A stretch of DNA of 49,530 nt, taken from Escherichia phage grams. Numbering within the stretch: the stretch's first letter is position 1; the number at the start of each line of letters is the position of its first letter. Position numbers and translations under genes: made by a program. Under the pieces are notes generated by a model. It did no database searches, was not told the origin of the DNA, and saw only the letters and a list, made by a program, of their open reading frames with translations. Shown here piece by piece: positions 11,325 through 24,799 of the stretch. Location: the sequence record NC_049825.1. One strand, 5' to 3'.

Positions 11325-11846
11325 ATGGCTAAAAACGTTGAGCCAGCAGTAAAGGCTTGCAATTTTAAAAAACTATATAATAAGCAATATGGCGATATAG
11401 CAAAAATGACAAAGGCGCACAAGTACACGCCGGAGCAGGTATTTGATCTGGCTGTTCGTTACTTTACGTGGGCTGAGGAAAACCATATACAGGCTGCGGA
11501 AACGGCATCCTTTCAGGGTGACGTATACGAAAGTAAGATTCACAAGCCGCGCGTGTTCACCTTAAATGGATTCCGCTTATTCGCTGGCCTTTCTGCTTCC
11601 GTGCTTGAAAAATGGCGACGCGAGCCAGGATTCAGCGATGTTATGGACTTTATCGACGGCGTTGTTTACGAGCAAAAATTCCAGCTTGCTGCAAACAATA
11701 TTGTTAACGCCGGATTCATTGGTAAAGAGATCGGCATTGAAAAGCCAGCTACCGTTACCATTGAGAATAACACAAGCGCAAGCGTTGACGCTGTAACGGC
11801 GGAGGAAGTCAAAGAGGCGGTAATTGACATTCTGGAGAAGATATAA
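11325..11846 (+). CDS. terminase small subunit (putative)
   Basis: 173 aa ORF immediately upstream of and overlapping terminase large subunit; RBS AAAGGAGGG; assignment by position and size. Confidence 0.5.
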   Translation: MAKNVEPAVKACNFKKLYNKQYGDIAKMTKAHKYTPEQVFDLAVRYFTWAEENHIQAAETASFQGDVYESKIHKPRVFTLNGFRLFAGLSASVLEKWRREPGFSDVMDFIDGVVYEQKFQLAANNIVNAGFIGKEIGIEKPATVTIENNTSASVDAVTAEEVKEAVIDILEKI

Positions 11847-13414
11847 TGCTGATTTGGGAAGACTTAACAGCGGCGCAGAAACGCGCCGTTAAGGAAATGA
11901 GCGAATATTCATTCGAAAAGATGATCCGCATTTGGTTTCAATTATTGCAAGGTCAGAAATTCTTAGGAAACTGGCATTTCAGCTACCTATGTAGCGAAGT
12001 TGAAAAAATCATCAAAGGCGAGTCACAGAACGTAATTTTCAACATAACGCCAGGCAGCGGTAAAACAGAGATATTCTCGATCCATATGTCACCTTATGCG
12101 TCATTGAAAAGTAAGAAGGTGCGAAATCTTAATCTTTCGTTTAGTGATGGCCTTGTCCAGCAGAATAGTAACCGAATTAAGGAGATTATTGGTTCTCCAG
12201 AATGGCAGGAGCTATGGCCAGGAAAGCTGGCAAAGGCGAGCGCAAAGGATTTGATTGTAACCGATGGCGGCAAGGTTAAGTTACAAGTTAACTCGCGTTC
12301 TATCGGTGGTCAGGTTACTGGTCTGCGTGGCGGCTACATGGACGATGGATTTACTGGTATGCTGGTTCTTGATGATCCAGACAAGCCGGATGACATGCTT
12401 TCTAAGGTGAAGCGCGAAGCCGGACACATGCGCCTAAAGAACACGGTGCGATCGCGTCGAATGAAGGACACAACGCCCATCGTAATGGTCCAGCAACGGC
12501 TACACGTCAATGATTCAACATGGTTCATGACAAACGGCGGCATGGGCGGCATACAGTTTAAGGTGGTTAGTATTCCGGCGCTCGTTACTAAGGAATATCG
12601 CGAAACGCTTCCTGATTGGTTAAAGCCTGAGTTTGATCGCGATGTTTTGTCCAGTAAGCCAGTGATGATTGATGGAGTTGCTCATTATTCATTCTGGCCT
12701 GCTAAGGAAAGCGCGGAGGAATTGCTTGCGCTTCGAAATGCTGATCCGTACACGTTCGCTAGTCAGTATCAGCAACAGCCTGTTGCGCTTGGCGGTAACG
12801 TGTTTAAAACAGAGTGGTTTCAGTATTACGGCAGCAGCGAGAAATGCACGCTACCAAAACCGGATCGCTTTGAATATACATTTATCACGGTTGATACCGC
12901 ACAGAAAACAGGGGATCTTAACGACTACTCCGTGATCTGTTATTGGGGGATGTATAAAGATCGCGTTTACTTCATTGATGGTGTTCGCGGAAAATGGGAA
13001 GCACCAGACCTTGAGACTAATTTTGTTGCGTTCGTTAATCAGTGCTGGAAGCGCAATAAAGAATGCGGAACGTTGCGAAGGATTCATGTTGAAGATAAAT
13101 CGTCTGGCACTGGTTTGATTCAGAGTGCAGCGAAAAAAATAATGATCAAGATCAATCCCGTTCAGCGCGATAAAGACAAGGTTACTCGTGCAATGGACGC
13201 AGCGCCAGTAATGCGCGCCGGACGCGTAGCACTTCCAGAATCGCATCCTATGCTGGCTGAGATACTCGCTGAAGTTGCGGCGTTTACATTCGATGATTCG
13301 CATCCTCATGATGATATTGTTGATAACATCATTGATGCGGTTAACATTGAAATGAACATGGCAGATGATCCGGTAGGAAGAATGAAAAAATTGGCAGGTT
13401 TGCGGAACAAATAG
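11846..13414 (+). CDS. terminase large subunit
   Basis: 522 aa; P-loop ITPGSGKTE; N-terminal ATPase and C-terminal nuclease-sized domains; position before portal. Confidence 0.8.
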   Translation: MLIWEDLTAAQKRAVKEMSEYSFEKMIRIWFQLLQGQKFLGNWHFSYLCSEVEKIIKGESQNVIFNITPGSGKTEIFSIHMSPYASLKSKKVRNLNLSFSDGLVQQNSNRIKEIIGSPEWQELWPGKLAKASAKDLIVTDGGKVKLQVNSRSIGGQVTGLRGGYMDDGFTGMLVLDDPDKPDDMLSKVKREAGHMRLKNTVRSRRMKDTTPIVMVQQRLHVNDSTWFMTNGGMGGIQFKVVSIPALVTKEYRETLPDWLKPEFDRDVLSSKPVMIDGVAHYSFWPAKESAEELLALRNADPYTFASQYQQQPVALGGNVFKTEWFQYYGSSEKCTLPKPDRFEYTFITVDTAQKTGDLNDYSVICYWGMYKDRVYFIDGVRGKWEAPDLETNFVAFVNQCWKRNKECGTLRRIHVEDKSSGTGLIQSAAKKIMIKINPVQRDKDKVTRAMDAAPVMRAGRVALPESHPMLAEILAEVAAFTFDDSHPHDDIVDNIIDAVNIEMNMADDPVGRMKKLAGLRNK

Positions 13415-19867: not shown

Positions 19868-20303
19868 AAACTACACGATAAGGGAATTTCACGGCAACAT
19901 TGATGCGTGGATAAACGCCGTTGATAGTGGACTAAAAGATTGTGTTGAGTTATTCGCCGAAAAAGTACACGCAGATTTGGTTAAGCGTTCTCCGGTAGAT
20001 ACTGGTCGTTACCGTGGAAACTGGCAGGTAACAGCAAATAAGCCGCCATTGTATGCGCTTAACCAGTACGATAAGCACGGCGACAAAACGATCGCGGAAG
20101 GTAAGAGAGCTATATACGCAATATTGAGAGGTGGCGGAGCGGTAAGGGCCATTTATTTTTCAAACATGCTTATTTACGCTAACGCGCTTGAATACGGTCA
20201 TTCAAAACAAGCGCCAGCTGGTGTGCTTGGGATTGTAGCGGTTAAGTTGAGATCTTATATGGCTGAGGCAATAAAAGAATCGAGGGCAAAAAATGCACTA
20301 TGA
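19860..20303 (+). CDS. HK97 gp10-like neck/tail component
   Basis: 147 aa; VDTGRYRGNWQV block characteristic of the family. Confidence 0.5.
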   Translation: MAKNYTIREFHGNIDAWINAVDSGLKDCVELFAEKVHADLVKRSPVDTGRYRGNWQVTANKPPLYALNQYDKHGDKTIAEGKRAIYAILRGGGAVRAIYFSNMLIYANALEYGHSKQAPAGVLGIVAVKLRSYMAEAIKESRAKNAL

Positions 20304-20691
20304 ATTAATGCTATCGGCGCGTAAGGCGCTGGCGACTGAATACGAGAGCAGATTCACGATCGCTTATGAAAACGTAGAGTTTACGCCACCTGGTGACGGT
20401 TCGCCGTGGTTGAAATTTGACTATACCGAAGTTGACACAGAATACTTGTCATTGGATCGCAAATGTGTTTCATATATCGGAATGATTCAGGTTGGCATTG
20501 TGTTTCCGCCAGGTTACGGAACTGACAGACCGCGTGTGCTCGCTAAAGAGATTGCGCAATTCTTTTACGATGGTAAAATGTTGGAGCATGGTTATATATA
20601 TGAGGGTGCAAGAGTTCACAAGCCGCTCAAGAGTGAAAGCGGCTGGATTCTCCCAATAAGATTTTATGTTCGAATTGAAACAAAGGAGTAA
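20293..20691 (+). CDS. tail completion / terminator protein (putative)
   Basis: 132 aa, position before major tail protein. Confidence 0.4.
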   Translation: MHYELMLSARKALATEYESRFTIAYENVEFTPPGDGSPWLKFDYTEVDTEYLSLDRKCVSYIGMIQVGIVFPPGYGTDRPRVLAKEIAQFFYDGKMLEHGYIYEGARVHKPLKSESGWILPIRFYVRIETKE

Positions 20692-20696
20692 AAATT

Positions 20697-21359
20697 ATGC
20701 ATTTACCAAATGGATCGCAAATTTTCGTTGAGAGCAATCGCGGCAGCGAAATCCAAGCAACCGCAGTGTCAAACGCTAAAGATCCCGTTTTCACTGTTGC
20801 ATCTGGTGGCACTGCGTACAAGAAAGGCGATTATGTAATCATCACTGCATCCTCCTGGGGCAAGCTGATTGATCGTGTTATGCGTGTAAAGGCTAACGGT
20901 GAAGAAACAAGCGTAACTCTTGAGGGTGTTGATACTACCGATCAGAACGTGTTCCCGACTGGCGGCACTGCATCTTTTGCCAAGATTGATGCATGGACTG
21001 AGATCCCTTGCGTTCAGGATTTGTCGCAGGGCGGCGGAGAACAGCAATATTACACTTATCAGTGTTTGGCTGACGACCAGGAGCAGCAGTTACCTACCTA
21101 TAAGAGCGCGGTTTCTCTTACCTACACTTTTGCGCACGAATACGATAACGCGATCTATCCGTTACTTCGTGCAGCAGACGAATCCGGTGAAGTAACGGCG
21201 CTTCGCATGTATGTACCAAAAGCAAAAGAGATGCGTTGCTGGGCTGGTGTACTTTCGTTTAACGAGATCCCGCAAACGACCGTTAACGAAATGGAAACTG
21301 TTTCCCTGTCTGTATCCCTGAAAGGTCGATTCACCTTTCTACCTTCTCAAGTAGCATAA
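20697..21359 (+). CDS. major tail protein
   Basis: 220 aa; position before chaperone-frameshift-tape measure triad; followed by strong terminator. Confidence 0.6.
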   Translation: MHLPNGSQIFVESNRGSEIQATAVSNAKDPVFTVASGGTAYKKGDYVIITASSWGKLIDRVMRVKANGEETSVTLEGVDTTDQNVFPTGGTASFAKIDAWTEIPCVQDLSQGGGEQQYYTYQCLADDQEQQLPTYKSAVSLTYTFAHEYDNAIYPLLRAADESGEVTALRMYVPKAKEMRCWAGVLSFNEIPQTTVNEMETVSLSVSLKGRFTFLPSQVA

Positions 21360-21365
21360 TCACAA

Positions 21366-21388
21366 GGGGCGTTGCGCCCCTTTTTTTG
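21366..21388 (+). terminator. intrinsic terminator
   Basis: GGGGCGTTGCGCCCC plus T7. Confidence 0.8.
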
Positions 21389-21401
21389 TTACTGTACAAT
21401 C

Positions 21402-21447
21402 ATGCTACACGATTCATAATCAATTCTTTTAACAAAAAGTGCTATCA
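21402..21447 (-). promoter_or_regulatory. conserved element plus -10 (TAGCAT) pointing leftward, antisense to late genes
   Basis: Minus-strand reading TGATAGCACTTTTTGTTAAAAG-N18-TAGCAT. Confidence 0.4.
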
Positions 21448-21458
21448 AGGAGAAAGAA

Positions 21459-21776
21459 ATGTCAAAAATGAAATTGACGATTGGGCCGCTTCCTGACTTT
21501 AAATTACCAGTGAAATTTGCAATGCCTAACGGAGAAGATCAAACAATTATCTTCACAGTTCGCCACCGCAAAACAAGTGAGATTCACGAGCGCTACACGT
21601 CAGATACTCCAATGAGCGATGTTGAAATGATTACCTTCCTTGCTTCCGGTTGGAATCTTGATGATGAATTTAACGAAGAAAATATTAAACAGCTTCTTGA
21701 TTACTACCCAGCAACAGCAATCGGATTAACTAGCGCATACATGAAAGCGCTTGCGGGGCAGCGAGTAAAAAACTAA
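21459..21776 (+). CDS. tail assembly chaperone (G-like)
   Basis: 105 aa; ends ...QRVKN stop with slippery AAAAAAC at 21767..21773. Confidence 0.7.
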   Translation: MSKMKLTIGPLPDFKLPVKFAMPNGEDQTIIFTVRHRKTSEIHERYTSDTPMSDVEMITFLASGWNLDDEFNEENIKQLLDYYPATAIGLTSAYMKALAGQRVKN

Positions 21777-22087
21777 AAAGGGCGGTTTACCTGTTTTATC
21801 AGAAACCGCCGACAGATGCAGAGCTTGAGGCCGTTGGGCTTACAAGGGCAGACTATGAAGGAGAAGATCCGCCAGAGGTTATATTTGATAAAAGCATGAT
21901 GCAATCATGGGATATATTTTGCGCAATGCAAACGCAGTGGAGATGTTCTGGCGGTGGCGCTTACGGATTTGATTATAATGTCTTGCCTATGCTTTTTGAG
22001 ATTTACAAGGTTGAGGATCGCGAGATGGCGCTAAACGACTTGCGAATCATGGAGCAAAAAGCACTTGAAATGATGCATTCAAAATAA
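21459..22087 (+). CDS. tail assembly chaperone frameshift product (G-T-like), -1 frameshift at 21767..21773
   Basis: -1 frame is open for about 107 codons from the slippery heptamer A AAA AAC to stop at 22087, ending just before tape measure gene. Confidence 0.6.
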
Positions 22088-22108
22088 GCGCCTACGGGCG
22101 CTTTTTTA
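22088..22108 (+). terminator. intrinsic terminator / attenuator
   Basis: GCGCCTACGGGCGC plus T6. Confidence 0.6.
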
Positions 22109-22126
22109 TTATCTGGAGGATTAATA

Positions 22127-24799
22127 ATGTCAGAACAATACGCAGGATTGACGCTTGGGGTTGACGTTTCTCAACTCAACAATGCTGTAAAGTCTTTGCA
22201 GCAATTCAAGAAGGCAAACGACGACGCAAAGGGAAGCGTTGAAAGTTTTGTTGATTCAGAGGTTGTTGCAAGACAAAGAGCCAAACAACTGGCTGAGGAA
22301 TTGGCAAAGCAGAAGCAAGAATTTAAAGCAATTCAGTCGGCAATAGATCCGACAGCAAGCAAAATGGATAAGTTGCGCCAGGCTGCGACACAGCTTGATG
22401 CGCTTTGGAAAAAAGGAATTGTGCCGGATGATACATTCTTTGAGTTAGGATCGATTCTTGAGACGCAGCAAAATAAACTGATCGCAACTAAAAAGGCACT
22501 AACTGAAGAAGGCCGCGCAGCGCTTGAGGAAGCAAAAAATAAGGCAAGAGCAGAGGCTGAGGCAAGAAAGTTTATTGCGGCATTGCAGGCGCAAGCTGAC
22601 GCAGCGGAAAAAACAAAGTCAGAGCTTGTAGAAATGAGAGCCGCACAACTTGGAGTTAGTGCAGAGGCCGCGCAATTTATTGCAAAAATGAAGGAGCAGG
22701 AAAAACAAGCCTCAAAACTTGGCGTTTCTATGGGGCAGTACAAGCAAGCAATGGCGCAATTGCCAATGCAGATCACTGACGTTGTTACTTCTCTTGCTTC
22801 AGGTATGCCAGTATGGATGATCGCAATCCAGCAGGGTGGTCAAATCAAGGACTCATTCGGCGGTGTTGCTAATACGTTTAAAGCGCTAATGACATTTGTC
22901 ACGCCTTTAAGTGTAGGAATGACGGCGCTGACTGGTGCTCTTGGTTATGCTGCATATAATGCATACAAAACAAATGCACAGCTGAAGGAGATCACAAAAA
23001 CCGTTCAGGAGGCAACAGGTCTTTCAGGTGAGTTTGCAGAGCGGATCGCAACTGGAATTCAGGCGCTATCTGACAAGACAGGAGAGAGCGCAGACAATAT
23101 CGCAAAGGCTTATATAAGCACTAAGGATGGAGCAAGCGAGGCTATACAAAAACTCGTCGATGTTGGATTTACCTATGACGAAGCAAAGGCAAAAGTAAAC
23201 GAATACAAAAACGCATCAAGTTTTGTAAGTCTTAACAATGAAATTGCTGATCACAAAAACAAAGTTCTTGAGCTTGGCGATTCATGGTATGCGGTCTTAA
23301 AAGCAAAACGTGATTATGCTTCACCGTCCGGCGGGCTGTTGGGGAAAGAGCTTGGTTATGTAAATCCTATGTTGCAATTTGCGAAGAACACCTATGAGGA
23401 TATAGGAAAGATCGTAAAAGATGCGAATAGGGATATGGCGGAACGAGCAGCACGCATCGACAGAGAAAACCTTTCATTAAACAGAGTTCGATCGGCGCAA
23501 GAGGCTTTAAACAAAGCCATAGAGGATCAGAAGAACGTAGCAAGGACAGCAGACGAAGAGTTGAAAAAACGAGCGGCTGAGAACGTTGAGTTCAGGCGAA
23601 AAGAGCTTGAAGAGGCGAAGAAGGCGCAGCAGCAAAAGGAAAAAGTTGGTGGAGTTGTAAAAGCACCAACAGAGCAGCTTGATAAGGAGCTATATGTTCT
23701 CAAAGCGCAACTTGAAACACTAAAAGAGCACAGGACTGTAAATGATGTTATTTCACGCCAGAGGCAATCTTTGTGGAGTATTGAAAAGCAGATCCAGATC
23801 CTGGAGGAAGCGCAAAGCAAACGCAAGCTGACAAGAGCGGAACAGGCGTTACTAAACGAGCAAAAAACAGTTCTTGCTATGGCAAAAGAAAAGGCAGATA
23901 TAGGCGATCAGATTGTTTTGCAACAGAGAAAGAATAAGCAATACCAGGAAGGGCTTAAATTCATTCAGCAAACATCAGATGCTATTGACGCTATGAACTT
24001 GCGACAGTCTGGAGCTACAGATCTGCAAATCCAGCGAGAGCTTGAGTTGAAGAAGTTGCGAACTGATTATGTTGCTGGCGGCGGTAGTATCGACGATGAA
24101 ATTTATCAGCAGATGGAAGCAAAGCTGAAGGAGTATTACGCCACTGAGGATCAGCTTAGAAATAACTGGATTGCAGGAGCAAAGAACGCATGGGAGGTTT
24201 ACGGACAAGATGCAATGGATATGTACGGCAACGTGCAAGATATTGCAAGCGAGGCGCTCAACGGTCTAACCAACCAAATGGCTACATTCCTTGCAACAGG
24301 TAAGGCAAATTTTAAGAGCTTCGCAACGTCAATCATCCAAATGATTATCCAGATGATCACAAAGATGGTTATCTTTAATGCCATATCTGGTGCGATTGGC
24401 GGTGACACTTGGACGATTGGGAGCCTTCTTAAAAATGTTGGATTTGCAACTGGTGGATACACTGGCGACGGCGGGAAGTATGAGCCAGCAGGTGTTGTTC
24501 ATAAAGGCGAGTTTGTCATGACTAAGGAGGCCACGAGGCGGATCGGAGTTGGAAATCTTTACAAAATGATGCGCGGTTATGCAAATGGCGGCGTTGTTGG
24601 TGGATCTTCATACACTGGCGGCGGCGTTTCATCTGGAGCCACAAATCTTAATATTGGCGGGATCAGCGTTGATATTAACAACGGAAGCGATCCGAAAGGG
24701 TTGGAGACTGGCGTAAAAATGATTTTCACTGATATGATTAAGCGATCCTGTACGCAAGGTGGAGAAGTTTACGAATTTGTTATGTCTAAGCGGGGGTGA
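22127..24799 (+). CDS. tail tape measure protein
   Basis: 890 aa, Ala/Lys/Glu/Gln-rich coiled-coil-like sequence, Gly-rich C-terminal region; RBS GGAGG. Confidence 0.85.

What the first reader, a model, noticed from the sequence alone, without database searches (positions are those of the whole stretch)
21459..22087. Programmed -1 ribosomal frameshift in the tail assembly chaperone
The chaperone gene ends ...GTA AAA AAC TAA, so the slippery heptamer A AAA AAC (21767..21773) sits immediately before the stop. The -1 frame is open from this point for about 107 codons to 22087, just before the tape measure gene. This matches the conserved G-T frameshift of long-tailed phages and supports the tail module assignment.
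Basis: partly seen in the sequence, partly recalled or inferred. Interest (0 to 1): 0.4.

Follow-up and report, generated by a model that had tools for sequence, protein, structure and literature searches.

The report
Tail chaperone G-T frameshift site
This T1-like coliphage has the usual "G/GT" arrangement of long-tailed phages, in which a small share of ribosomes slip back one base at the end of the tail chaperone gene and make a longer fusion protein; it is real and well conserved, but already annotated in close relatives, so it is ordinary.

Summary
The 105-codon gene at 21459..21776 (Pfam Phage_TAC_4) ends GTA AAA AAC TAA. The in-frame heptamer A_AAA_AAC lies at 21767..21773. The -1 frame runs on to a stop at 22085..22087, giving a predicted 209-aa (24.1 kDa) fusion. 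The cassette sits between the tail tube gene and the tape measure gene.

The extension (Pfam DUF1799) has no ATG/GTG/TTG for its first 41 codons. Those codons still evolve as coding sequence, with substitutions of 51:25:111 at -1-frame codon positions 1:2:3. Both halves lie adjacent, as two BLAST pieces, in 1,075 phage records.

The AAA at 21767-21769 and the stop position are invariant in 38 distinct junction sequences, although the amino acid of the first codon varies. A hairpin 7 nt downstream (21781..21810, -15.1 kcal/mol) is far more stable than synonymous re-codings (z = -3.3), but some lineages lack it.

This is not new. Phages TLS, Sazh and Skenny carry joined "frameshift product" CDSs at the homologous site, and a genome announcement describes it. 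The Hanrivervirus records checked, and T1 itself, annotate a separate short ORF instead. No experiment on this phage exists.

The parts
21447..21452 (+). Shine-Dalgarno sequence AAGGAG of the chaperone gene, 6 nt before the ATG; it serves both G and GT
   Evidence: Read directly from the sequence. Sazh and Skenny annotate one shared RBS for both products at the homologous place.
21459..21776 (+). G: tail assembly (tape measure) chaperone, product of standard translation, 105 aa, 12.0 kDa
   Evidence: ORF. Pfam PF08748 Phage_TAC_4 E=1.8e-31, 109 bits against a cutoff of 21.1. phrog_569 and phrog_17368. Mass.
21767..21773 (+). Slippery heptamer A_AAA_AAC (X_XXY_YYZ in the G frame): Lys-104 codon AAA in the P site, Asn-105 codon AAC in the A site
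   Evidence: A_AAA_AAC plus a stop is found in 32 of 80 IMG/VR loci and in most annotated relatives. AAA at 21767-21769 is invariant in 38 distinct sequences, although the codon holding 21767 encodes V, A, E or Q. IS1 uses the same heptamer in E. coli (PMC4066793).
21774..21776 (+). G stop codon TAA directly abutting the heptamer; a possible contributor to the shift through slow A-site decoding. In the -1 frame, C+TA encodes the invariant Leu-106
   Evidence: The stop position is invariant (T10 and A12 in alignment A2). Leu-106 is invariant in A1. A stimulatory role is inference only.
21781..21810 (+). Candidate 3' stimulatory hairpin: GGCGGUUU (21781-21788) pairs with AAACCGCC (21803-21810), with an inner CUG/CAG (21791-21793 / 21800-21802); it starts 7 nt after the heptamer
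   Evidence: MFE -15.1 kcal/mol, z=-1.68 against dinucleotide shuffles. z=-3.26 against 300 synonymous re-codings of the T-frame peptide, 0.7% of them as stable. 67.9% of cells paired across 38 sequences against 32-49% when slid, with covariation at 20:43, 22:41 and 24:39. Absent in Rogunavirinae and ACG-M12.
21773..22087 (+). T: -1 frame extension, 104 sense codons plus the stop at 22085-22087, reached only by frameshifting. The first ATG/GTG/TTG is at 21896, codon 42 of the extension
   Evidence: Pfam PF08809 DUF1799 at fusion residues 127-206, 46-48 bits against a cutoff of 26. phrog_680 at residues 114-208. Codon-position substitutions of 51:25:111 before the ATG and 74:31:172 after it. 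The ATG is not conserved in Webervirus, BF9, pAEv1818 or K70PH128C1.
21459..22087 (+). GT fusion, join(21459..21773, 21773..22087), 209 aa, 24.1 kDa
   Evidence: phrog_17368 matches residues 1-208 to profile positions 1-210 of 213, E=2.4e-101. tblastn finds both halves adjacent as two pieces in 1,075 records. The same construction rule reproduces the annotated end of TLS tfmS.
20697..21359 (+). Tail tube (major tail) protein gene, upstream neighbour
   Evidence: Pfam Phage_tail_3 8.6e-64.
21364..21382 (+). Terminator-like hairpin plus T-run between the tube gene and G
   Evidence: Annotated as a terminator at the homologous place in T1, Sazh and Skenny.
22086..22103 (+). Terminator-like hairpin plus T-run just after the T stop and before the tape measure gene
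   Evidence: Annotated as a terminator at the homologous place in T1, Sazh and Skenny.
22127..24799 (+). Tape measure protein gene, downstream neighbour
   Evidence: Pfam TMP_2 3e-35 and Tape_meas_lam_C 6.5e-22.

Best explanation
This is a programmed -1 ribosomal frameshift in the tail assembly chaperone gene of a T1-like (Drexlerviridae, Hanrivervirus) coliphage.

**Proposed mechanism**
- Most ribosomes translate 21459..21776 and terminate at TAA, giving G (105 aa).
- A minority slip back one base on A_AAA_AAC (21767..21773). With tRNA-Lys on AAA and tRNA-Asn on AAC, both re-pair to AAA AAA.
- Those ribosomes then read CUA AAA AGG GCG ... in the -1 frame to 22087, giving GT (209 aa, junction ...RVKN-LKRAVYL...).
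- The slip is probably helped by the hairpin 7 nt downstream, and possibly by the stop codon that follows the heptamer.

**Proposed function, by analogy with lambda**
- The shared G part coats the tape measure protein.
- The rare T part recruits the tail tube protein.
- One mRNA thereby fixes a high G:GT ratio.
- Neither protein ends up in the virion.

**Shown here:** the anatomy, the coding status of the extension, the conservation of the slip site, and selection for the hairpin in this lineage.

**Inferred:** that the fusion is made, its level, the tandem (rather than single-tRNA) slip, and the binding partners.
For: - **Anatomy:**
- **G identity:** Pfam Phage_TAC_4, 1.8e-31.
- **Extension identity:** DUF1799 and phrog_680. 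The whole fusion matches the 213-position phrog_17368 end to end at 2.4e-101.
- **Synteny:** lambda-like order of tail terminator, tube, G, T, TMP, then M-, L-, K- and I-like genes.
- **No start codon:** there is none in the first 41 codons of the extension.
- **Coding signature:** those 41 codons show substitutions of 51:25:111 at -1-frame positions 1:2:3 against relatives at 60-80% identity.
- **Breadth:** 1,141 phage records match, and 1,075 have both halves adjacent in two frames.
- **Slip-site conservation:** A_AAA_AAC plus a stop is conserved in Tempevirinae, Tunavirinae, Braunvirinae, Dhillonvirus and an Aeromonas phage.
- **Selection on the nucleotide:** AAA at 21767-21769 is invariant in 38 distinct sequences while the amino acid of the codon holding 21767 varies among V, A, E and Q. 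This points to selection on the base rather than the residue.
- **Hairpin:** z=-3.26 against synonymous re-coding, with partial covariation.
- **Curated precedents:** joined CDSs in TLS tfmS, Sazh and Skenny, and the statement in PMC6763657.
- **Mechanistic precedents:** IS1 uses A_AAA_AAC in E. coli. E. coli has a single tRNA-Lys (UUU), which makes A_AA.R shift-prone (PMC4066793). Lambda G:GT is 30:1 and the shift is widely conserved in long-tailed phages (PMC5009743).
Against: - No protein-level or ribosome-profiling data exist for this phage or, as far as I found, for any T1-like phage. The joined CDSs in relatives are annotators' inferences.
- A_AAA_AAC is much less shift-prone than A_AAA_AAG in E. 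coli (PMC5009743). This suits a low-level shift but says nothing about the actual rate.
- The hairpin is not universal. Rogunavirinae and ACG-M12 lack it, and Webervirus has a weaker one with a shifted 3' arm.
- Webervirus, Rogunavirus and K70PH128C1 have only an A_AAA or A_AAG tetramer. The heptamer is therefore not strictly required, and the tandem-slip detail is uncertain.
- The window's proteins show no sequence homology to lambda G/T, so the functional roles rest on position and analogy.
Confidence: 0.9

Rival explanations
1. There is no frameshift. The downstream part is made on its own as the 63-aa protein starting at ATG 21896, as most public records of this genus annotate it. G and this small protein act as two separate polypeptides.
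For: KarlJaspers, JLBYU09, Henu8, PMBT35, Shfl1 and T1 annotate a separate short ORF. The ORF listing finds an ATG ORF at 21896..22087.
Against: - The 41 codons upstream of that ATG are conserved as protein (LKRAVYL...PPTD...GL.R.DYE) with a third-position substitution bias.
- They are covered by DUF1799 from fusion residue 127 and by phrog_680 from residue 114, whereas the ATG is at residue 147.
- The Met is absent in Webervirus, BF9, pAEv1818 and K70PH128C1.
- Annotators place the start of the 'second ORF' at many different positions, as expected when no real start exists.
- The only SD-like GAGG (21876-21879) lies 16 nt before the ATG.
Confidence: 0.04
2. The frame change happens in the mRNA rather than on the ribosome. 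RNA polymerase slips on the A6 run (21767-21772) and adds one A (or drops two) in a fraction of transcripts, and normal translation of those transcripts gives GT.
For: - A homopolymer run sits exactly at the junction.
- Natural variants with one A more or one A fewer exist in related contigs, so the run is length-unstable at some level.
- The protein outcome would be the same as for ribosomal slippage.
Against: - From established knowledge, productive transcriptional slippage in bacteria generally needs runs of about 8-9 or more A or T. Six is short.
- Webervirus (GCA AAA GTT TAA), Rogunavirus (GCA AAG GTC TAA) and K70PH128C1 (CAA AAG CCT TAA) keep the same two-frame architecture with runs of only 3-5 A. 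Polymerase slippage is implausible there, whereas tRNA-Lys slippage on A_AAR is well documented (PMC4066793).
- Selection for an RNA hairpin 7 nt downstream fits a ribosomal mechanism.
Confidence: 0.04
3. The shift is ribosomal and -1, but it is carried out by the single tRNA-Lys on the A_AAA tetramer (21767-21770), with the following codons merely slow to decode. It is not a tandem slip of two tRNAs on the heptamer. The junction would then read ...RVKK-LKR... instead of ...RVKN-LKR....
For: - The only element invariant across all 38 junction sequences is A_AAR at this Lys codon. Three lineages have no heptamer at all.
- A_AA.G and A_AA.A tetramers are used by IS elements (PMC4066793).
- The fusions of tetramer and heptamer lineages are colinear if the slip is at the Lys codon.
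Against: - 32 of 80 loci, and most subfamilies, keep the full heptamer with AAC. This suggests that the second codon matters where it is present.
- From established knowledge, heptamers are generally more efficient than tetramers.
Confidence: 0.25
4. The overlap is a chance arrangement or an assembly error, and G-T is really a single ORF or two unrelated ORFs.
For: Rare contigs do have one A more or one A fewer at this run.
Against: The same two-frame arrangement is seen in 1,075 independent phage records and in 75 of 80 IMG/VR loci. The window-wide census shows the configuration is unique to this gene.
Confidence: 0.01

Closest known systems
Phage TLS tfmA / tfmS (NC_009540) and Citrobacter phage Sazh CPT_Sazh_046/047 (Tlsvirus, same subfamily Tempevirinae)
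   Same: - Homologous genes: 70% (TLS) and 73% (Sazh) identity over the fusion.
- The junction is identical, GTA AAA AAC TAA, and the hairpin is the same.
- The position between the tube and tape measure genes is the same.
- Both are already annotated as two-piece joined CDSs, labelled 'frameshift product' in Sazh.
   Different: Only sequence divergence. The Hanrivervirus records I checked lack the join and call a 63-aa ORF instead.
Klebsiella phage Skenny tail assembly chaperone frameshift (Webervirus; PMC6763657)
   Same: A T1-like phage with homologous G and T (about 46% identity for Webervirus). It carries a joined CDS, and the paper states that the frameshift is analogous to lambda G/GT.
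   Different: Webervirus has GCA AAA GTY TAA. That is an A_AAA tetramer only, with no X_XXY_YYZ heptamer, and a weaker hairpin whose 3' arm is shifted.
Phage lambda G / GT
   Same: - Same gene position (V, G, T, H) and a -1 shift near the end of G.
- The fusion shares the whole G part.
- The downstream tail genes (M, L, K, I) are homologous to the window's.
- A low-level shift sets a 30:1 ratio (PMC5009743).
   Different: - There is no detectable sequence homology: hhalign probability 0.3%, and the Pfam families differ (PF06894 + PF06223 against PF08748 + PF08809).
- Lambda's slip site is G_GGA_AAG, 15 nt before the G stop. Here it is A_AAA_AAC, directly abutting the stop.
- Lambda GT is 279 aa, against 209 aa here.
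IS1 InsAB' frameshift (A_AAA_AAC) in E. coli
   Same: It uses the same heptamer in the same host. It is a proven low-efficiency -1 frameshift that produces a fusion of two overlapping ORFs (PMC4066793).
   Different: It is a transposase, not a virion assembly factor, and it has no established stimulator. Here there is a hairpin 7 nt downstream.

Membership tests
Lambda-type G/GT tail assembly chaperone frameshift (functional class of Xu, Hendrix and Duda 2004) | Two overlapping ORFs lying between the major tail (tube) protein gene and the tape measure gene | tested here: met
   Tube gene 20697-21359 (Phage_tail_3), G 21459-21776, T frame to 22087, TMP 22127-24799 (TMP_2, Tape_meas_lam_C).
Lambda-type G/GT tail assembly chaperone frameshift (functional class of Xu, Hendrix and Duda 2004) | The second ORF is in another frame (-1), has no start or RBS of its own, and is conserved as coding sequence right up to the overlap | tested here: met
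   No ATG/GTG/TTG for 41 codons. Substitutions of 51:25:111 by codon position in that stretch. Family profiles reach fusion residues 114-127.
Lambda-type G/GT tail assembly chaperone frameshift (functional class of Xu, Hendrix and Duda 2004) | A slippery sequence in the overlap, conserved among diverged relatives | tested here: met
   A_AAA_AAC at 21767-21773. It is identical in relatives down to about 36% identity, and A_AAR is invariant in 38 distinct sequences.
Lambda-type G/GT tail assembly chaperone frameshift (functional class of Xu, Hendrix and Duda 2004) | The fusion protein is actually produced, at a low fixed ratio to G (about 1:30 in lambda) | not testable with these tools
   Needs a western blot, mass spectrometry or ribosome profiling. 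No such data were found for T1-like phages.
Lambda-type G/GT tail assembly chaperone frameshift (functional class of Xu, Hendrix and Duda 2004) | G and GT are both required for tail assembly and absent from virions; G binds the tape measure protein and T binds the tube protein | not testable with these tools
   Genetic and biochemical property. It is known for lambda only (PMC5009743).
Pfam PF08748 Phage_TAC_4 (for G) | Score above the curated gathering threshold over the full-length model | tested here: met
   109.3 bits against 21.1, residues 1-105 on model positions 1-124 of 124.
Pfam PF08809 DUF1799 (for T) | Score above the curated gathering threshold | tested here: met
   46.0-48.2 bits against 26, fusion residues 127-206 on model positions 2-80 of 80.
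PHROG 17368 (fused chaperone proteins of T1-like phages) | An end-to-end match of the conceptual fusion to the family profile | tested here: met
   Residues 1-208 on profile positions 1-210 of 213, E=2.4e-101.
Lambda gpG / gpT sequence families (PF06894 Phage_TAC_2, PF06223 Phage_tail_T) | Detectable sequence homology to lambda G and T | tested here: not met
   The window's proteins do not hit these Pfam models. hhalign of A1 against lambda GT gives probability 0.3%. Lambda GT itself hits both models.
Canonical bacterial -1 PRF signal (heptamer plus 3' structure) | An X_XXY_YYZ heptamer in the zero-frame register | tested here: met
   A_AAA_AAC in register.
Canonical bacterial -1 PRF signal (heptamer plus 3' structure) | A stable RNA structure starting about 5-9 nt after the heptamer, maintained by selection | tested here: inconclusive
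   Present in the window: a 7-nt spacer, -15.1 kcal/mol, z=-3.26 against synonymous re-coding. There is some covariation. It is absent or weak in Rogunavirinae, ACG-M12 and Webervirus, and no Rfam family matches.

The most novel reading that the evidence does not exclude
In this chaperone family the functional core of the recoding signal may not be the textbook heptamer plus hairpin. It may instead be the single A_AAR lysine codon held at a fixed distance (one codon) from the G stop.

- Both features are invariant across lineages that have lost the heptamer, the hairpin or both.
- If so, slow decoding near the terminator, rather than RNA structure, sets the G:GT ratio, and the heptamer and hairpin are lineage-specific tuning elements.
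- A side issue is whether the A8 variants (L053, L092) are real genomes that encode GT as the default product.
Probability: 0.25. Interest if true: 0.3.

Novelty: already known. Interest (0 to 1): 0.12.

Why it matters
Its main value is for annotation. It confirms the tail module assignment. It also shows that this phage's genome, like the Hanrivervirus records checked here and T1 itself, should carry a joined CDS, join(21459..21773, 21773..22087), for a 209-aa chaperone fusion. The free-standing 63-aa 'hypothetical protein' or 'tape measure protein' ORF should go.

It adds nothing new in biology. The G/GT frameshift is a textbook feature of long-tailed phages and is already annotated in T1-like relatives.

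The comparative data give a small bonus. The family offers natural variants (heptamer or tetramer, with or without hairpin) that could be used to study how a low, fixed frameshift ratio is tuned.

Tried and rejected
**Searches and predictions that led nowhere**
- **Structure:** AlphaFold2 on the fusion as a single sequence gave mean pLDDT 41.6 and pTM 0.28. The model was unusable, so I ran no fold search.
- **Homologue search:** The search for homologous proteins with the fusion returned only three T-part proteins of 123-136 aa, called from upstream in-frame positions. That was not enough for a deep alignment, and I did not spend a second search because the Pfam and PHROG hits were already decisive.
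- **PDB by sequence:** the A1 profile found nothing better than E=0.7.
- **Rfam:** no match at 21650-21950 at E<=1.
- **Literature:** the searches 'Drexlerviridae + frameshift + tape measure chaperone' and 'Citrobacter + Sazh + frameshift' found nothing.

**Ideas considered and dropped**
- **5' SD-like stimulator, as in dnaX:** GGGG at 21755-21758 lies 8 nt before the heptamer. However, it is a Gly codon whose third base varies among relatives (GGG, GGC, GGA, GGT), so it is not conserved.
- **+1 or -2 shift:** the +1 frame is open for only about 20 codons around the stop.
- **Minus-strand ORF 21773..21904** (43 aa, TTG start): a shadow of the coding region, with no support.
- **The hairpin as a transcription terminator:** no T-run follows it. 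The terminator scan reports only 21364-21382 and 22086-22103 in this cassette.
Full report
**What the window is.** The region 20600-22400 is 97.8% identical to Shigella phage SFP17 and Escherichia phage haarsle. It is 96-97% identical to many other members of Drexlerviridae, Tempevirinae, Hanrivervirus. This is a T1-like siphovirus of E. coli and Shigella.

Around the finding the gene order is lambda-like:
- tail terminator (20293-20691, Phage_tail_terminator_5)
- tail tube protein (20697-21359, Phage_tail_3, 8.6e-64)
- the two ORFs of the finding
- tape measure protein (22127-24799, TMP_2 and Tape_meas_lam_C)
- homologues of lambda M (Phage_min_tail), L (Phage_tail_L), K (Prok-JAB + NlpC/P60) and I (Lambda_tail_I)

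**Checking the observation.** The sequence reads ...CAG CGA GTA AAA AAC TAA AAA GGG CGG....
- The ORF 21459..21776 encodes 105 aa and is preceded by AAGGAG at 21447-21452.
- The heptamer A_AAA_AAC occupies 21767-21773 in the X_XXY_YYZ register of that ORF, and TAA follows at 21774-21776.
- The -1 frame is open from 21734 to the stop at 22085-22087.
- The fusion made by a -1 slip on the heptamer is 209 aa and 24.1 kDa, against 12.0 kDa for G.
- The +1 frame closes after about 20 codons.

**Is it more than chance?**
- In the window's long ORFs, in-frame X_XXY_YYZ heptamers occur at 0.0021 per codon, so about 0.03 would be expected in the 13-codon overlap.
- Among 106 ORFs of at least 80 aa on both strands, only two have a -1 extension of at least 60 codons and a heptamer in the overlap.
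- The other one (12669..12935) is a shadow ORF inside the gene at 11846..13414.
- G is thus the only real gene with this combination. It is also the one whose -1 ORF has no start codon for 41 codons.

**What the two parts are.**
- G hits Pfam PF08748 Phage_TAC_4 (tail assembly chaperone) over its whole length: 1.8e-31, 109 bits against a cutoff of 21.
- The extension hits PF08809 DUF1799 at fusion residues 127-206 and phrog_680 at residues 114-208.
- Both matches begin well before residue 147, the Met encoded by ATG 21896, which is where public records start a 63-aa ORF.
- The conceptual fusion matches the 213-position profile phrog_17368 end to end (1-208 on 1-210, E=2.4e-101). Fused proteins of exactly this kind are therefore already present in phage annotations.

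**Is the stretch with no start codon translated?** I built the fusion in 17 related loci and aligned the extensions.
- Against relatives at 60-80% protein identity, the 41 extension codons before ATG 21896 differ at -1-frame codon positions 1:2:3 in the ratio 51:25:111.
- That is the same pattern as the 63 codons after the ATG (74:31:172).
- The peptide LKRAVYL, which follows the slip site directly, is among the best conserved parts.
- The Met at 21896 is not conserved. Webervirus, Dhillonvirus BF9, Aeromonas phage pAEv1818 and K70PH128C1 lack it.
- Annotators of different relatives start the 'second ORF' at many different places, as expected when no real start exists.
- The only SD-like motif before ATG 21896 (GAGG, 21876-21879) is 16 nt away.

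The extension is therefore coding from the slip site onward and can be reached only from the G frame.

**Conservation of the signal.**
- tblastn with the fusion finds 1,141 phage records. In 1,075 of them, one place covers at least 80% of the query, and every row of the 60-record spread with at least 80% coverage is a two-piece match. The hosts include Escherichia, Klebsiella, Salmonella, Citrobacter, Ralstonia, Pseudomonas and Stenotrophomonas.
- The junction NNA AAA AAC TAA/TGA is identical in kind in these groups, the last two at only about 36% protein identity:
  - Hanrivervirus, Warwickvirus, Tlsvirus and Tunavirus (Shfl1)
  - BrunoManser (Sertoctavirus) and ACG-M12 (Braunvirinae)
  - Cronobacter phage SG01, Dhillonvirus BF9 and Aeromonas phage pAEv1818
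- L034, whose contig length of 48,836 bp equals that of phage T1, also has the heptamer.
- In 80 IMG/VR loci, the junction types were:

| Junction | Loci |
|---|---|
| A_AAA_AAC + stop | 32 |
| GCA AAA GTY/GCC TAA (Webervirus type) | 38 |
| GCA AAG GTC TAA (Rogunavirus type) | 5 |
| Irregular | 5 |

- In an ungapped alignment of 38 distinct 60-nt junctions (A2), the AAA at 21767-21769 and the stop position are invariant.
- The codon that ends at 21767 is GTA, GCA, GAA or CAA. Its amino acid changes (V, A, E, Q) but its third base never does. That is selection on the nucleotide, which is what a slip site predicts.
- The heptamer-less lineages keep A_AAA or A_AAG at the same Lys codon. Their fusions are colinear with the others if the slip is placed there.

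**The downstream hairpin.**
- GGCGGUUU (21781-21788) pairs with AAACCGCC (21803-21810), with an inner CUG/CAG. The stem starts 7 nt after the heptamer and the MFE is -15.1 kcal/mol.
- Against dinucleotide shuffles this is unremarkable: z=-1.68, with 14 of 200 shuffles as stable.
- Against 300 synonymous re-codings that keep the T-frame peptide, it is exceptional: controls average -5.7 +/- 2.9, z=-3.26, and 0.7% are as stable.
- The same test gives:

| Lineage | z |
|---|---|
| BrunoManser | -5.3 |
| Shfl1 (Tunavirus) | -4.0 |
| Warwickvirus | -3.2 |
| L093 clade | -3.2 |
| pAEv1818 | -2.8 |
| BF9 | -2.1 |
| Webervirus | -1.4 |
| Rogunavirinae and ACG-M12 | about 0 or positive |

- The controls use this window's codon usage, so z is probably inflated for the GC-rich distant lineages.
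- Counting the window's pairs across the 38 sequences gives 67.9% paired cells, against 60.2% in shuffles and 32-49% when the 3' arm is slid.
- Both-sided changes occur at several pairs: 20:43 is GC 14, UA 11, CG 6; 22:41 is UA 14, CG 7; 24:39 is UA 19, GC 7. BF9 keeps the stem in exact register, with U:A replaced by C:G and G:C.
- Because the structure was derived from the window, these controls lean in its favour.
- My reading is that the hairpin is a real, selected stimulator in this lineage, but it is not a universal part of the signal.
- No Rfam family matches.

**Mechanism.**
- E. coli decodes AAA and AAG with a single tRNA-Lys (anticodon UUU), which makes A_AA.R and V_VV.A_AA.R motifs shift-prone.
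- A_AAA_AAC is the proven IS1 shift site, and low-efficiency motifs are used where little fusion product is wanted (PMC4066793).
- Lambda needs only about one GT per 30 G. In lambda the G part binds the tape measure protein, the T part binds the tube protein, and neither is in the virion (PMC5009743).
- The best explanation is therefore a low-level -1 ribosomal slip on 21767-21773, helped by the hairpin and perhaps by the adjacent stop codon. It would give G and GT in a fixed ratio from one mRNA.
- The tandem-slip detail, the rate and the binding partners are inferred.
- Transcriptional slippage on A6 is unlikely, because sister lineages keep the architecture with runs of only 3-5 A.

**Comparison with what is known.**
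- Phage TLS (NC_009540, same subfamily) annotates tfmS as a two-piece joined CDS, next to tfmA (G) and tfmB (the short ORF).
- The TLS junction is GTA AAA AAC TAA with the same hairpin. My construction rule reproduces the annotated end of tfmS, and the fusion is 70% identical to the window's.
- Citrobacter phage Sazh (73% identity) has a joined 'Tape measure chaperone frameshift product'.
- Klebsiella phage Skenny has a joined 'tail assembly chaperone frameshift product'. [quoted passage not shown]
- By contrast, KarlJaspers, JLBYU09, Henu8, PMBT35, Shfl1 and T1 itself annotate two separate ORFs.
- Compared with lambda, position and logic are the same. There is no detectable sequence homology (hhalign probability 0.3%), and lambda falls in PF06894 + PF06223.
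- Lambda's site is G_GGA_AAG, 15 nt before the G stop, not a heptamer abutting the stop.

The feature therefore belongs to the functional class of G/GT frameshifts and to the PF08748/PF08809 families. It does not belong to lambda's own sequence families.

**Verdict.** The feature is already known for this phage family. The only practical consequence is an annotation correction for this genus. Interest is low.

Noticed in passing
L024 (IMGVR_UViG_2974632794_000001, 98% identical to the window) and L019 (IMGVR_UViG_2974728900_000001), around locus position 905-915: Both contigs have GTAAAAACTAA, with five A instead of six at the slip site. G then reads on for 17 more codons and T falls in the +1 frame. 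This is either a homopolymer sequencing error or a real length variant of the slippery run.
   Followed up: partly
L053 (IMGVR_UViG_3300014001_000014) and L092 (IMGVR_UViG_2619619144_000009), A-run at locus position 922: - In this distant clade (34-36% identity), two contigs have GAAAAAAAAC (A8) where their relatives L093-L098 have A7 (GAA AAA AAC TGA).
- With A8, G and T form one continuous ORF in L053 (about 210 codons), so GT would be the default product.
- L092 has A8 and also a second 1-nt frame break later in T.
- The two contigs are only 87% identical and are not clear sisters.
- The cause could be sequencing error, decaying prophages or a real inverted arrangement. This is undecided.
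   Followed up: partly
L004, L005, L054-L091 (Webervirus); L013, L048-L052 (Rogunavirus); L017: These lineages keep the two-frame G/T architecture but have no X_XXY_YYZ heptamer (GCA AAA GTY TAA, GCA AAG GTC TAA, CAA AAG CCT TAA). Only an A_AAA or A_AAG tetramer remains at the same Lys codon. Rogunavirus also lacks a downstream hairpin. They are natural material for comparing heptamer-driven and tetramer-driven shifts.
   Followed up: partly
window 21364-21382 and 22086-22103: The G-T cassette is bracketed by two terminator-like hairpins with T-runs. One follows the tube gene and the other lies just before the tape measure gene. Both are annotated as terminators at the homologous places in T1, Sazh and Skenny. 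This suggests transcriptional attenuation steps that set the tube: chaperone: tape measure stoichiometry.
   Followed up: no
Public records matching window 21459-22087: RefSeq versions of many T1-like genomes name G, the short T fragment and the true tape measure gene all 'tail length tape measure protein'. PHROGs 569, 680 and 17368 carry the same label. This is a propagated misnomer for the chaperone.
   Followed up: no
Hit lists: Records labelled 'Streptococcus phage MBBL140' (OR786094.1, host S. agalactiae) and about 20 'Campylobacter' phages (host C. jejuni) carry this enterobacterial T1-like chaperone locus (72% protein identity for MBBL140). This looks like host mis-assignment or contamination.
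   Followed up: no
Fusion residues 169-181 (window about 21963-22001) against lambda T residues 190-202: The only hhalign match between the T1-like fusion profile and lambda GT is YGFDYNVLPMLFE against SGLTYTVLSLFFS, inside both T domains. It is not significant (E=0.24, probability 0.3%). It is noted only as a possible trace of common ancestry of the T domains.
   Followed up: no
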